Shown here piece by piece: positions 18,781-58,334 of a stretch of DNA of 64,000 nucleotides; position 1 is the first letter of the stretch; each line of letters opens with the position of its first letter. The notes beneath the pieces are model-generated. The model had not been told where the DNA came from. It was given only the letters and a program-made list of their open reading frames with translations, and did not search any database. The stretch is from an uncultured Chloroflexia bacterium (lineage in GTDB: Bacteria; Chloroflexota; Limnocylindria; Limnocylindrales; CSP1-4): assembly GCA_963745295.1 (NCBI GenBank), contig CAVUWG010000003.1, forward strand, positions 541,047 to 605,046, written 5' to 3'. Made by a program: the position numbers and the translations under genes.

Positions 18781-19834
18781 ATGAGTGCCTACAAGGAGTT
18801 CTCCGGCAAGACCGTGGAGGAAGCCCTGCGCCTGGCGCGGGAGGACTTCGAGGCTGGCCTCGATGACCTCGACTTCGAGATCCTGACGCCCGGCAGCCGC
18901 GGTGTGCTCGGCATGGGCGCCGAACCCGCCCGCATCGTGGCCGCACCGCGCGCCGCGCTCGGTGGCGCTGCCCCCAAGCGCGACGCCGCCGCCTCGACGC
19001 CTCTGCCCCCGACCAGGGACCAGGACGACCGGCCACCGCGCCGTGACGACCGTGGCCCCCGACGCGACGACCGACCGCCCCGCCGCGACGACCGACCGCC
19101 GCGACAGGACGCCGTTCCCCCGCAGGTCGACGCGCCCGTCGAGGCGCAGGCCAGTGTCGCGCCGCGGACCGACGACCGGCCGCCCCGGCCGCCGCGCCGC
19201 GACGACCGCGGCCCTCGCCGCGACGACCGGCCGCCCCGCCGCGACGACCGCCCCGCGTGGCGACGCCGCCGGCGGTGGCCTGACGGCGTCCGAGGCCGCC
19301 GAGGTGGCCGCCGCCCGTGGTTCGCTCGCCGCCGAGCGTGCCGAGCTCGAGGCGGCAGAGGCCTCGCCCGAGGCGCTCGCCGCCGGCAAGGCGATCCTCG
19401 AGCAGTTGATGACCCACCTCGGTTTCACGGTCAAGGTCGAGGTCGACACCGGCGAGACGAGCCGTCTCAACGTCGTCGGCGAAGGGGACGAGCGCGACGC
19501 GCTCGGCGCCCTCATCGGCCGCAAGGGCGAGCGCCTGTCGGCGCTCCAGCACCTCGTCAACCTCATGCTCTCCAAGGAGATGGGCAGCTGGACCCGCGTG
19601 CTGGTCGACGTCGAGGACTACCGCGGCCGGCGTGAGCGCCAGCTCCGGGACCTCGCGAATCGGGCCGCCGCCCGCGTCGTCGAGACCGGCAAGATGCTCC
19701 AACTGGAGCCGATGCCCGCGCTCGAACGGCGCTGGATCCACCTGACGCTACGCGACCACGAGGCCGTGGCGACGCAGTCGATCGGCGAGGAACCGAACCG
19801 GCGCGTCGTCCTCGTCCCGCGCGCACCGGGCTGA
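18781..19834 (+). CDS. khpB: Jag/KhpB RNA-binding protein (Jag_N, KH, R3H) interrupted by a +1 frameshift inside an RRDDRPP tandem-repeat linker at about 19255
   Basis: The N-terminal domain lies in ORF 18781..19635. The KH-R3H C-terminus lies in ORF 18902..19834, in the next frame. The frames switch inside 21-bp repeats. Confidence 0.7.
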
Positions 19835-19869
19835 CCGGCTCACCTGGACGTCACGCGGACCGCTCGGCA

Positions 19870-19888
19870 GGCGTCCCCACAGGACGCC
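19870..19888 (+). terminator. GC-rich hairpin (GGCGTCC-CCACA-GGACGCC) downstream of jag; no U-tract
   Basis: Stem-loop read directly from the sequence. It is weak as an intrinsic terminator. Confidence 0.2.
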
Positions 19889-19940
19889 CGACGGCCCACG
19901 ACGACCCGCTCGTCACGCCTGCTAGGATGTCGCTCCGCTC

Positions 19941-54589: not shown

Positions 54590-54611
54590 GGTGCGCTACT
54601 CCTCGGAACGG

Positions 54612-55620
54612 TCATGCGAGCGGTGGCTCGGGGTGGGTGGTGGGGTCGGGCAGCTCACCGAAGCGAGCCGAGGTCTCGGCGGCGGTCGAGGTGGTCGGGG
54701 CGCCCGCGCGCCGGCGGATGCCCGCGAGGCGGGCGCGGAACTCGTCGGCCACGGCCGGATCGAGCTTGCTGAGCGAGTCGCGGATGACCCAGGCGCGGTG
54801 GCCGTCGTCGGTGGTCGCCGCGTCGGTCCGTCTCGGCGCGAAGGGCATCGGTGGTCGCGGCCAGGTCGACCTGGGCCAGCGAGCGGTAGGCCCACGACAG
54901 GGCCTTCTGCACGTCGGGCTCGTCGTCGCCCATCAGCTGGCCGAGCAGCGGCAGGGCGCGGTGGACGACGTCCGGGTCGAGGCCGCGCCGGCGGTGACCG
55001 TGGGTCATCGTCGCGATCGTCGAGCCGACCAGACGACGCTCCCAGCGCGATGGCGAGAAGACCAGCTGCTCGAGCTCGGCCCAGCGGTACGGCTCGGCGG
55101 CGATGCCCTTGCCATACGGGTGGGCGAGGTCGTCGACCGTGATCCAGTCGCCGGCCTCCCGGGCCGCCCGACGGAGCAGCTGCCAGGTTCGCTCGGTCTC
55201 GAGCGGCAGGGTCCGTTCGAGGAGGCCGAACGCGAACCAGCGCGGTTCGAGGTACGGCTCCGCGAACAGGCGGTCCGCGACAAAGAGCAGGGGCGTCGGA
55301 CGCTCGTCGCGGGTCGCGTTCCGGAAGCCGCGCGAGACGGCCGCCATCAGCGGCCAGCGGACACCAAGGACCGGGCCGATGCCGGGCGCGACCCGCTGCT
55401 GCCCGTCGAGGTACTCGGGGTCGGCGAGGCGCCCCAGCCCGGCGGTCAGGGCGGCGGCGAACGCCTCGGGATCATTGGTCAGCTCGGCCAGATCCGCGCC
55501 GATGGTCTCCGCCGCGGCCTTATGGTCCGCCACGAAGACGACCGCGCGGGCCGTCACGTCACTGCCGGGGGTGGTGGGCATGGCGGTCGCCGCGGTCGCC
55601 GCGGTCGCTGTCGCGGTCAT
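54612..55620 (-). CDS. DNA alkylation repair enzyme (AlkD/HEAT-like) family protein; apparent +1 insertion near 54850
   Basis: Most of the protein is in ORF 54655..56085, from MTATATAAT. The C-terminus (AWVIRDSLSKLDPAVADEFRARLAGI) is in the adjacent frame, ORF 54612..54848. Confidence 0.5.
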
Positions 55621-56159
55621 GGTTGCGGGTCCACCGCGTCGGGTGTATCGGCGTGGGCCAGCGTGAGGCTCGAGTCCAATTGGCGGAAGCCGTAGCGTTC
55701 GCGGAGCTCCTGCTTGCGGTCCGCATCGGCGGCGACGTACGTCCCGGTCGCGGTCGCCAGCTCGACCCCCGACTCGATATCGACGATCCGCCCGGCCGTC
55801 TCGACGATCCGTCGGCGCGACCGCGTGACCCAGCCATCGGCACGGATGGCCAGCCCGATCGGGACCGGCTTCCGGAACGCGACGGCGATGCGGGCCGTGA
55901 CGCCCCAGTTGTCCTCCGCAACCAGGGCCCAGGCCATCACCTCGTCGAGGATCGTGCTGACGATCCCGCCGTGCGCGACGCCCTCCCATCCTTCGAACCG
56001 ACGATCGAGCTCGAGGGTCGTCCACGACCGGGCCGGCTCCAGGTGCAGGGTCATCTGGAGCCCGTGCGTGTTGAGCGTGCCGCAACCGAAACAGTGATGT
56101 GGCGTGAACTCGAAGCGGGCCGTCGGCGAGACACGGACGTCACGGACGTCAGATGTCAA
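55617..56159 (-). CDS. PaaI/4HBT-type hotdog-fold thioesterase
   Basis: The motif [18 protein letters not shown] fits the hotdog-fold thioesterase family. 180 aa. Confidence 0.6.
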
Positions 56160-58334
56160 GGTTCTGGACCTTCCGGGCCTCGGACTTGATGAAGTCCTTG
56201 CGCGGCCCGACCTTCTCGCCCATCAGCATCGTGAAGACCTCGTCGGCCTGCGCCGCGTTCTCCGCGTTGACGCGCAGCAGGGTCCGCGACTCCGGGTTCA
56301 TCGTCGTCGCCCACAGCTGATCGGCGTTCATCTCGCCAAGGCCCTTGAACCGTTGCACGGACAGGTTCTTGACGTTGAACTCCTTGATGACCCGCTCGCG
56401 TTCCTTCTCGGTCTGCGCGTAGCGCGTGACCTTGCCGGTGCTGATGCGGTAGAGCGGCGGCTGCGCCACGTACAGGTAGCCCTGCTCGATGATCTCGGGC
56501 ATGTGGCGGTAGAACAGGGTCAGCAGGAGCGTCCGGATGTGGGCGCCATCGACATCCGCGTCGGTCATGATGATGACCCGGTGGTATCGCAGCTTCGAGA
56601 TGTCGAAGGTGTCGCCGATGCCTGCCCCGAGCGCGATGATCAGCGGCCTGACGTTCTCGCTCGACGAGGATCTTGTCCAGGCGTGCCTTCTCGACGTTGA
56701 GGACCTTGCCCGCGGAGCGGCAGGATCGCCTGGAAGCGGCGGTCGCGTCCCTGCTTCGCCGAGCCGCCGGCCGAGTCACCCTCGACGAGGTACAGCTCGC
56801 TTCGAGCGGGATCGCGCTCCTGGCAGTCGGCGAGCTTGCCCGGCAAGGACATGCCGTCGAGGGCGCCCTTGCGGATGACCAGGTCGCGCGCCTTGCGGGC
56901 TGCTTCGCGGGCGCGCGCGGCGGTCAGGCATTTCTCGATGATCCGGCGGCCGTCGCCCGGATTCTCGTCGAGGTACTGGCCGAGACTGTCCGCGACCGCC
57001 TTCTGGACCTGGCCCTTGACCTCGGCGTTGCCGAGCTTGGCCTTCGTCTGGCCCTCGAACTGGGGATCGGTCAGCTTGACGCTGATGACGGCGGTCAGCC
57101 CTTCGCGAACGTCGTCGCCCGACAGGCTCGCGTCGGAGTCCTTGAGGATCGCGGCGCGGCGGGCCCAGTCGTTGAGCGAACTGGTGAGCGCCGCGCGGAA
57201 GCCCGTGATGTGCGTCCCGCCGTCGACCGTGTTGATGTTGTTCGCGAAGGCGAGCACGTTCTCGGTGTACGAGTCGTTGTACTGGAGCGCGACTTCGACC
57301 GCGGTGGACCCTTCGCGACGCTCGACGTAGATCGGTCGATGGTGGAGGACCTCCTTGCGTCGGTTGAGGTGACGCACGAAGGACTGGAGGCCGCCCTCGA
57401 AGTAGAACGAGCGCTCACGGTCATTGCGCTCGTCGATGAGCGTGATCCAGACGCCCTTGTTCAGGTAGGCCGACTCGCGCAGGCGCTGACTGATCGAATC
57501 GAACGAGTAGTCCGTGGTCTCGAACATCCCCGAGTCGGCGCGGAAACTGGTCAACGTCCCCCGTCGCGTGCCCTGCGGAGCGATCTTCTTGACCGGTCCG
57601 CGCGGCTTCCCACGCTCGTATTCCTGCGCCCAGATGTGCCCGTCCCTGGCGGATTCCACGCGCATCCATTCGGACAACGCGTTGACGACGCTCACGCCGA
57701 CGCCGTGCAGGCCGCCCGACACCTTGTAGCCGCCGCCGCCGAACTTGCCGCCGGCGTGCAGGACCGTGTGGACCACCTCGAGGGCGTCCTTGCCGGTGGA
57801 ATGTTTGCCGACGGGGACGCCTCGCCCGTCGTCCTCGACGACGACCAGGCCGGCGTGGACCGTTCCGTCGGGGTCGGTCCAGCCATCGGCCTTGATCGTG
57901 ACGGCGATCTTGTGCGCATGGCCGGCCATCGCCTCGTCGATCGAGTTGTCGACGACCTCCCAGACCAGGTGATGCAGGCCGCGCTCATCGGTCGAACCGA
58001 TGTACATGCCCGGTCGGCGTCGAACCGCCTCGAGACCCTCGAGGACCTGGATGCTGGCCGCGGTGTAGTCGGAGCCGGCCCCCCGACCTCGTTTGGTGCC
58101 GGCCGGCGCGGCCTTCGCCGGCTTGGCGGCCTTGGAGCCGTTGACGGGCTTCGAGCCGATGACGGGCTTCGCCGCGCTCGCCCCGGCGGGCTTCGTCACG
58201 TTCGCCCCGGCGGGCTTCGCCACGTTCGCCTTGGCTGGCTTCGCCACGTTCGCCTTGGCGGTGGCGGCCTGTGCGGCCGCGTTGCCGTTCCGCGCGGCGG
58301 CGTTGCCGGTTCGGCCGGCGGTCTCCTCGGTCAC
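56149..58334 (-). CDS. gyrB: DNA gyrase subunit B with about 90-aa N-terminal A/K/P-repeat extension; the C-terminal TOPRIM region is split by two single-base insertions (about 56710 and 56660)
   Basis: The ATPase and transducer domains are intact in ORF 56640..58334. [15 protein letters not shown] is in ORF 56156..56779. [21 protein letters not shown]...GLGEMN is in ORF 56149..56568. The GTG start overlaps the parB stop (GTGA) and has a GGAGGG Shine-Dalgarno sequence. Confidence 0.88.

What the first reader, a model, noticed from the sequence alone, without database searches (positions are those of the whole stretch)
19250..56715. Isolated frameshifts in otherwise conserved genes are almost all +1 single-base insertions, including in essential gyrB
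Outside the 35.5-40.9 kb block, jag (about 19255), the KefB-like gene (about 22410), the alkD-like gene (about 54850) and gyrB (twice, about 56710 and 56660) each change frame exactly as expected for a single inserted base. The RND paralog (about 28860 and 27965) shows the same pattern and is treated separately below. In gyrB the first case is an extra G in a GGG run (cgcGGGcaag where cgcGGCaag is expected). gyrB is essential and sits in a conserved parB-gyrB-gyrA context. Long genes such as gyrA, secA, dnaA and the 1796-aa GT are intact. A uniform insertion bias and hits in essential genes argue for sequencing or polishing artefacts rather than biological pseudogenes. If genuine, a recoding or slippage mechanism would be required.
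Basis: seen in the sequence. Interest (0 to 1): 0.6.

Follow-up and report, generated by a model that had tools for sequence, protein, structure and literature searches.

The report
Assembly-made frameshifts at strain SNPs
The single extra bases that break gyrB and four other genes are consensus errors in a long-read metagenome assembly: where co-occurring strains differ by one base, both alleles were written side by side, so the frameshifts are not biological.

Summary
Seven extra bases (19255, 22406, 27936, 28839, 54822, 56666, 56712) break jag, a KefB-like gene, an RND paralog, an alkD-like gene and gyrB. Deleting them restores full-length ORFs that match intact sister proteins: jag 350/350, KefB 610/612, gyrB 724/727.

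Three sister assemblies of the same species (96-99.5% identical, other ENA samples) lack five of the seven bases. Each sister has its own broken essential genes: gyrA, secA, dnaA or yidC.

The cause is not homopolymer miscalling. At six of the seven sites, relatives carry a SNP whose two alleles are exactly the two bases adjacent in the window. An example is Arg CGG/CGC, which appears as CGCG in the window's gyrB.

Across all four assemblies, 103 private extra bases stand against 27 private missing bases. Only 19% extend a homopolymer, where 55% is expected. In 18% a sister allele is visible, against 2.2% in controls.

The dense 36-41 kb block shows the same signature (28 extra, 1 missing). 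There the strains differ by about 5%.

prfB's true programmed +1 site is conserved in every sister and serves as a positive control.

Verdict: a polishing artefact caused by strain mixtures. There are no pseudogenes and no recoding.

The parts
56149..58334 (-). gyrB. The as-is translation stops after 564 aa. Removing bases 56712 and 56666 gives a 727-aa ORF.
   Evidence: 724 of 727 residues identical to sister L002. The truncated 564-aa product is itself in the protein collection as P0122, from a 975,037-bp NCBI/ENA contig.
56712..56712 (-). Extra base 1 in gyrB. The window reads CTC CG[C]G GGC. Sisters read CGG (L001, L002) or CGC (L003, L009, L010) at this Arg codon.
   Evidence: Both alleles of a synonymous third-position SNP sit side by side, in the window only.
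56666..56666 (-). Extra base 2 in gyrB. The window reads ATC CT[C]G TCG. Sisters read CTG (L001-L003). The more distant relatives L009 and L010 read CTC.
   Evidence: Not a homopolymer context.
54612..55620 (-). alkD-like (DNA_alkylation) gene with an extra base at 54822. The window reads CGA[C]; sisters read CGC (L001) or CGG (L002, L003).
   Evidence: (335 aa after repair; sister 334 aa, 327 identical).
27356..30501 (-). RND (ACR_tran) paralog with extra bases at 28839 and 27936.
- 27936: the window reads CT[G]C; sisters read CTC (L004, L005) or CTG (L006).
- 28839: the window and L005 read GTC/CTC [G] CTG; L006 reads CTG; L004 reads GTG.
   Evidence: intact 1047 aa in L006; 1047 aa after repair, 1019 identical.
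21760..23599 (-). KefB-like (Na_H_Exchanger + TrkA_N) gene with an extra base at 22406. The window reads CG[C]G; sisters read CGC (L004, L006) or CGG (L005).
   Evidence: (612 aa after repair, 610 identical to L005).
18781..19834 (+). jag (Jag_N, KH, R3H) with an extra base at 19255. The window and L005 read CCC [G] CGT. L004 and L006 lack the base and encode an intact 350-aa Jag.
   Evidence: (350 of 350 identical to L004 after repair). The alternative allele was not seen on its own in any sister.
60335..60335 (.). Window-only extra C in intergenic DNA (gcccg[C]ctccc).
35700..41000 (.). Dense block showing the same signature. Polarised with an outgroup, there are 28 window-only extra bases against 1 window-only missing base, and only 4 of the 28 extend a homopolymer. 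Local divergence from the sister strain is about 5% in the block (5-7% per kb over 37-40 kb), against 0.4% in the left flank and 1.3% in the right.
46526..46532 (-). Positive control: the genuine programmed +1 frameshift site of prfB (CTT TGA C, with an upstream GGGG).
   Evidence: The 21-mer is identical in all sister contigs.

Best explanation
The extra bases are consensus (polishing) errors in a long-read metagenome assembly built from a mixture of closely related strains. They are not mutations in any cell.

Where two co-occurring strains differ by a single-nucleotide substitution, mostly a synonymous C/G difference at a third codon position, the consensus step kept both alleles one after the other instead of choosing one. 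This lengthens the sequence by exactly one base and shifts the frame by +1. It explains three things:
- the uniform insertion bias;
- the lack of homopolymer context;
- the hits in essential genes.

The density of such errors rises where the strains differ most, which produces the 36-41 kb block.

Shown here:
- The bases are absent from sister assemblies.
- The two adjacent bases are the two alleles seen in relatives.
- Every assembly has its own set of such lesions.

Inferred, not shown:
- The sample held both alleles.
- The step at fault is the Flye/Medaka-type polishing of Nanopore data.
For: 1. Deleting the seven bases restores full-length ORFs nearly identical to intact sister proteins. 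The repaired GyrB is 100% identical over 641 aa to P0001.

2. Five of the seven intragenic extra bases, plus 60335, occur in the window only.

3. At 56712, 54822, 27936, 22406 and 28839 the sisters are polymorphic for exactly the two bases that are adjacent in the window. At 56666 the second allele (CTC) is present in L009 and L010. By the automated four-way criterion 4 of 8 sites qualify, against a 2.2% control rate (p = 1.6e-5).

4. All seven extra bases abut a third codon position, and none falls between positions 1 and 2.

5. Across the four assemblies there are 103 private extra bases against 27 private missing bases (p = 1e-11). In 19 of the 103 the allele is visible in a sister, against 2.2% in controls (p = 2e-12). 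Only 20 of the 103 could extend a homopolymer, against 55% expected (p = 2e-13).

6. Each sister assembly has different essential genes broken:
- contig_16284: gyrA, secA, dnaA
- contig_67494: secA, yidC, KefB
- contig_102165: secA, yidC, parA

7. The block at 36-41 kb combines about 5% divergence from L007 with 5-19 window extra bases per kb, while the flanks have 0.4-1.3% divergence and almost none. Polarised with L011, the block has 28 extra bases against 1 missing.

8. The real recoding site in prfB is conserved in all sisters.

9. Context:
- Relatives in the genome collection are 'MFD...bin' MAGs with Flye-style contig names.
- That project used Nanopore-only metaFlye assemblies with one round of Medaka (PMC12313526).
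- metaFlye yielded only 56.8% full-length proteins on ONT soil data (PMC13087279).
Against: - No reads were available, so the presence of both alleles in the window's own sample is inferred, not seen.
- I could not retrieve the window's own record or confirm its sequencing platform.
- jag 19255 and RND 28839 are shared with one sister assembly (L005). This fits inheritance as well as recurrence of the artefact at the same polymorphic site. For 19255 and 60335 no alternative allele was seen on its own.
- Only 18% of all private extra bases have a visible sister allele. The rest could be plain noise.
- In the block the allele test is weak: 6 of 28, against an 8% control with a distant outgroup.
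- The per-kb correlation between inter-assembly SNP density and extra bases is moderate in one region (rho 0.54, p = 0.016) and absent in the other (rho 0.06).
- Six of the seven pairs are C/G, while C/G makes up 34% of SNPs. The model does not explain this excess.
Confidence: 0.88

Rival explanations
1. The insertions are genuine mutations of this strain. Under this view gyrB, jag, KefB, alkD and the RND paralog are real pseudogenes of a decaying genome.
For: - The bases are present in the deposited sequence.
- The jag and RND-28839 lesions recur in a second assembly from another sample.
- The RND gene has an intact paralog next door (30999-34145), so losing it would be tolerable.
Against: - gyrB is essential, sits in the parB-gyrB-gyrA context, and would lose its C-terminal 160 residues.
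- Sisters at 99.4% identity are intact.
- A real insertion would have to copy the alternative SNP allele at six of seven sites.
- Every sister would need its own independent hits in gyrA, secA, dnaA and yidC.
- A 103:27 insertion bias and a ratio of about one indel per five substitutions inside conserved genes are unlike bacterial mutation spectra, which are deletion-biased (established knowledge).
Confidence: 0.03
2. The frameshifts are decoded by programmed +1 ribosomal frameshifting or by transcriptional slippage, so full-length proteins are still made.
For: - All shifts have the same sign (+1).
- The organism does use +1 frameshifting in prfB.
Against: - The seven sites share no shift motif, in-frame stop or upstream Shine-Dalgarno-like element.
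- The sites are absent from 96-99.5% identical sisters, whereas the prfB site is identical in all of them.
- There is no A/T or other slippery run that would allow polymerase slippage.
- gyrB would need two independent events 46 nt apart.
Confidence: 0.005
3. The extra bases are ordinary read noise that survived polishing at low coverage (homopolymer-length or random insertion errors) and have nothing to do with strain polymorphism.
For: - 82% of all private extra bases have no visible allele in the three sisters.
- The sister assemblies differ strongly in error load. L001 and L003 carry ten times more than the window and L002, as coverage differences would produce.
- Frameshift errors are common in ONT soil assemblies (PMC13087279).
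Against: - Homopolymer extension is strongly depleted: 19% observed against 55% expected.
- Allele coincidence is eight-fold enriched overall, and reaches six of seven in the window.
- Identical extra bases recur at the same site in non-sister assemblies, for example L001 and L003 at 50728.5 and 50133.5.
- The window's errors concentrate in the strain-divergent block.
Confidence: 0.08

Closest known systems
Indel/frameshift errors of long-read (Nanopore, metaFlye/Medaka) metagenome assemblies, as measured by IDEEL-type truncated-protein tests
   Same: - Conserved genes are split by single-base indels.
- The lesions differ between assemblies of the same organism.
- They are worst in soil data and with strain heterogeneity (PMC13087279; PMC12424758; PMC9262707).
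   Different: - The classical description blames homopolymer length errors. Here the events avoid homopolymers.
- They are overwhelmingly insertions.
- They carry the two alleles of a SNP side by side. I did not find this specific signature spelled out in the papers I read.
Programmed +1 ribosomal frameshift of prfB (release factor 2)
   Same: The frame change has the same sign (+1). One such site really is present in this window at 46526-46532.
   Different: The prfB site has the defining CTT TGA C with an upstream SD-like GGGG and is identical in all sister contigs. The seven sites of the finding have no motif and are missing from the sisters.
Frameshifted pseudogenes of degrading genomes, and their rescue by transcriptional slippage at poly(A) tracts in endosymbionts
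   Same: Single-base frameshifts occur in otherwise conserved genes, sometimes essential ones.
   Different: Those lesions are inherited, lie in long A/T homopolymers and occur in AT-rich reduced genomes (my own knowledge). Here the genome is 70% G+C, the sites are not homopolymers, and they are not inherited by 99%-identical relatives.

Membership tests
Consensus artefact of a mixed-strain long-read assembly | The lesion is absent from independent assemblies of the same species. | tested here: met
   Five of seven intragenic extra bases, plus 60335, occur in the window only. The other two are absent from two of the three sisters.
Consensus artefact of a mixed-strain long-read assembly | Independent assemblies carry their own, different lesions, including in essential genes. 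| tested here: met
   gyrA, secA, dnaA, yidC, parA and the PRPP synthetase gene are split in one or more sisters but intact in the window. Private extra bases per assembly: L001 30, L003 23, L004 21, L005 11, L006 10.
Consensus artefact of a mixed-strain long-read assembly | The extra base and its neighbour are the two alleles of a population SNP. | tested here: met
   Met at six of seven intragenic sites. Overall 19 of 103, against a 2.2% control.
Consensus artefact of a mixed-strain long-read assembly | Reads of the sample show two alleles, and no molecule carries both bases. | not testable with these tools
   No read data are accessible, and the window's own record could not be retrieved.
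Homopolymer-length sequencing error | The extra base extends a run of the same base. | tested here: not met
   20 of 103 events, against 55% expected by chance; 4 of 28 in the block. gyrB site 2 (CT[C]G) has no run.
Programmed +1 ribosomal frameshift | The shift site is conserved in close relatives. | tested here: not met
   The sites are absent from sisters. The feature is met for the prfB control.
Programmed +1 ribosomal frameshift | A shift-prone codon followed by a stop or rare codon, with an upstream stimulator. | tested here: not met
   The contexts listed share no stop codon, SD-like element or heptamer.
Genuine pseudogene | The lesion is inherited by the clade and the gene is dispensable. 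| tested here: not met
   gyrB is essential, and its lesions are private. The test is inconclusive only for jag 19255 and RND 28839, which are shared with L005.

The most novel reading that the evidence does not exclude
A minority of the lesions may be real inherited frameshifts of a sub-lineage rather than a recurrent artefact. The candidates are the jag (19255) and RND-paralog (28839) extra bases, which recur in a second assembly from another sample.

The more extreme version is that the gyrB bases are real and are decoded by an unknown +1 recoding mechanism. The sister genomes effectively exclude this.
Probability: 0.04. Interest if true: 0.35.

Novelty: not a real feature. Interest (0 to 1): 0.1.

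Why it matters
Biologically the finding matters little: the organism almost certainly has intact gyrB, jag, KefB-like, alkD-like and RND genes.

Practically it does matter.
- The contig sits in NCBI and ENA.
- Its truncated 564-aa GyrB is already a member of public protein clusters (P0122).
- At about one false frameshift per 7 kb outside the block, and 5-19 per kb inside it, such MAGs seed false pseudogenes, split genes and wrong completeness or 'genome decay' statistics.

The signature found here is a +1 insertion, outside any homopolymer, with two SNP alleles side by side next to a third codon position. It is simple enough to be screened for and corrected automatically. It also warns that frame-shifted essential genes in long-read soil MAGs should not be read as recoding or reductive evolution.

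Tried and rejected
- Looking up the window's own truncated GyrB (P0122), and its GyrA (P0186), to obtain the window's record name failed. Only the sister contig was returned.
- I tried to tie the ERZ accessions to the Microflora Danica paper. No supplements are held, and no paper mentions the accessions. The link to that project therefore rests on naming style and on related 'MFD' MAGs only.
- The pairwise (window against L007) allele test in the block gave 0 of 30. I realised the test is uninformative by construction, because a pairwise aligner always aligns the matching allele. I repeated it with L011 as a third sequence, but L011 is another species (87-91% identical), so the test is weak: 6 of 28 against an 8% control.
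- The per-kb correlation of extra bases with inter-assembly SNP density was mixed and I do not rely on it.
- I considered methylation-motif-linked systematic error, because of recurring CTCGC contexts. I dropped it because the sites are explained by C/G alleles and no single motif covers them.
- I checked 1-14.6 kb for further split genes by Pfam. The matched profiles are essentially complete (dnaN in full) and no gene is visibly split. Two ORFs had no hit.
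Full report
**What is in the sequence.**
The window is 70% G+C.
- A codon-usage Viterbi segmentation and three-frame translation show that jag, a KefB-like antiporter gene, an RND-transporter paralog, an alkD-like gene and gyrB each change frame in mid-gene.
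- Every change has the sign expected for one extra base.
- In gyrB the reading passes from frame 0 to frame 1 for 15 codons ([15 protein letters not shown]) and then to frame 2.
- A conceptually repaired GyrB aligns without gaps to E. coli GyrB across both junctions.

**Where the window comes from.**
- The repaired GyrB is 100% identical to an intact 726-aa protein, P0001.
- The same 90% cluster holds the window's own truncated 564-aa product. It comes from a 975,037-bp contig present in NCBI and ENA.
- The cluster also holds intact GyrB proteins from three other megabase contigs.
- I fetched those three sister contigs around gyrB and around the 24-kb region. They are ERZ25039494 contig_16284, ERZ25039591 contig_67494 and ERZ25039469 contig_102165.
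- They are 96.0-99.5% identical to the window, that is, strains of one species of Limnocylindria-like Chloroflexota.
- Related species in the genome collection are mostly 'MFD...bin' MAGs with the same Flye-style contig names.
- That project is Nanopore-only: metaFlye followed by one round of Medaka (PMC12313526).
- I could not confirm that the window belongs to it.

**The extra bases are not in the relatives.**
Four-way alignments place the extra bases at 19255, 22406, 27936, 28839, 54822, 56666 and 56712, plus an intergenic one at 60335.
- Six of the eight occur in the window only.
- 19255 and 28839 are also present in contig_16284 but absent from the other sisters.

Deleting the seven intragenic bases gives ORFs with no internal stop that match intact sister proteins:

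| Gene | Length after repair | Identical to sister |
|---|---|---|
| jag | 350 aa | 350 of 350 |
| KefB-like | 612 aa | 610 of 612 |
| gyrB | 727 aa | 724 of 727 |
| alkD-like | 335 aa | 327 of 334 |
| RND paralog | 1047 aa | 1019 of 1047 |

Each sister carries its own broken genes that are intact in the window:
- gyrA, secA and dnaA are broken in contig_16284;
- secA, yidC and the KefB-like gene in contig_67494;
- secA, yidC and parA in contig_102165.

Independent hits in different essential genes in every assembly cannot be biology.

**What makes the extra base.**
The local alignments show that the sisters are polymorphic at these very positions. The window holds both alleles in tandem.

| Site | Sister alleles | Window |
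|---|---|---|
| gyrB 56712 | Arg CGG or CGC | CGCG |
| KefB 22406 | Arg CGC or CGG | CGCG |
| RND 27936 | Leu CTC or CTG | CTGC |
| alkD 54822 | Arg CGC or CGG | CGAC |
| RND 28839 | CTG or GTG | G CTG |
| gyrB 56666 | CTG (sisters); CTC (two more distant, intact contigs) | CTCG |

- One of the two distant contigs at 56666 has a MEGAHIT-style name, so it is probably a short-read assembly.
- All seven extra bases abut a third codon position.

**Statistics over all assemblies**.
- There are 103 private single extra bases against 27 private missing bases (p = 1e-11).
- In 19 of the 103, a sister carries the extra base as a substitution next door, against 2.2% at random columns (p = 2e-12).
- Only 20 of the 103 could extend a homopolymer, against 55% expected (p = 2e-13).
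- Some identical extra bases recur in non-sister assemblies. This is what a shared polymorphic site would produce, and it offers an artefactual explanation for the two shared window sites.

**The 35.7-41 kb block.**
- Against contig_16284 the block is about 5% divergent overall, while the flanks are at 0.4-1.3%. That is also where the window has 5-19 extra bases per kb.
- With a third, more distant genome (L011) as outgroup, the window has 28 private extra bases and 1 private missing base there. Only 4 of the 28 are of homopolymer type.
- The block is therefore the same artefact at high density, in a strain-variable segment.
- The allele test is weak there because the outgroup is another species.

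**Positive control.**
- The window does contain one real +1 recoding site: prfB, with TCGGGGCGT CTT TGA C at 46526-46532 on the minus strand.
- This 21-mer is identical in all sister contigs.
- The seven sites of the finding share no motif and are not conserved.

**Interpretation.**
- The best explanation is a consensus or polishing error of a long-read metagenome assembly on a mixture of strains.
- At a SNP, reads of one strain support an inserted base, and the compensating loss is not called. Both alleles therefore end up in the consensus, always adding one base.
- The literature reports that metaFlye makes serious polishing errors under strain heterogeneity (PMC12424758). It also reports that ONT soil assemblies have many truncated proteins (PMC13087279).
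- Which software step is at fault, and whether the window's own sample holds both alleles, is inferred. Only read pile-ups can show it.
- Unexplained detail: six of the seven allele pairs are C/G, although C/G is only 34% of SNPs.

**Verdict.**
- There are no pseudogenes and no recoding.
- The biological interest is low. The value is practical, as a recognisable error signature in public MAGs.

Noticed in passing
window 46526-46532 (- strand), gene about 45465-46600: prfB (release factor 2) carries the classical programmed +1 frameshift site, CTT TGA C, preceded by an SD-like GGGG. The N-terminal 25 or so codons are in another frame. The site is identical in all sister contigs.
   Followed up: yes
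window 34492-34868 (-) and 35543-35668 (+): Rfam finds a tmRNA gene and a c-di-AMP riboswitch in the 857-nt 'non-coding' gap. The tmRNA stretch is 99% identical to a different species (L011) whose flanks are 87-91% identical. ARAGORN does not detect this tmRNA.
   Followed up: partly
window 35700-41000: The dense frameshift block covers MFS, urease (gamma/beta/alpha), proline-racemase-like and smpB genes. These are largely intact in L011. The block is a strain-variable segment, about 5% divergent from the sister strain, with 28 extra bases against 1 missing.
   Followed up: partly
window 58000-58334 (- strand), N-terminus of gyrB: GyrB has a K/P/A-rich, repeat-like N-terminal extension of roughly 85-110 aa ([20 protein letters not shown]...). 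Its length varies between strains: there are in-frame 24-nt and 3-nt indels at 58182 and 58108, and products of 719-727 aa.
   Followed up: no
L004 (ERZ25039591 contig_67494) 456-929 and 5274-8591; L001 13741-16320: The sister assemblies carry much heavier damage than the window. The Fur protein is locally garbled by compensating shifts, the RND paralog is in at least three pieces, and gyrA is split into 233 + 434 aa. Error load differs about ten-fold between assemblies.
   Followed up: partly
L011 (ERZ25039492 contig_6728) against window 27300-34400: The related species lacks both RND transporter genes between the MFS gene and the tmRNA/Fur region. The RND pair is therefore a lineage-specific insertion or loss.
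   Followed up: no
window sites 19255, 22406, 27936, 28839, 56666, 56712: Six of the seven concatenated allele pairs are C with G, although C/G makes up only 34% of SNPs among the sisters. The artefact seems to prefer C/G transversions next to G or C runs. The cause is unknown.
   Followed up: partly
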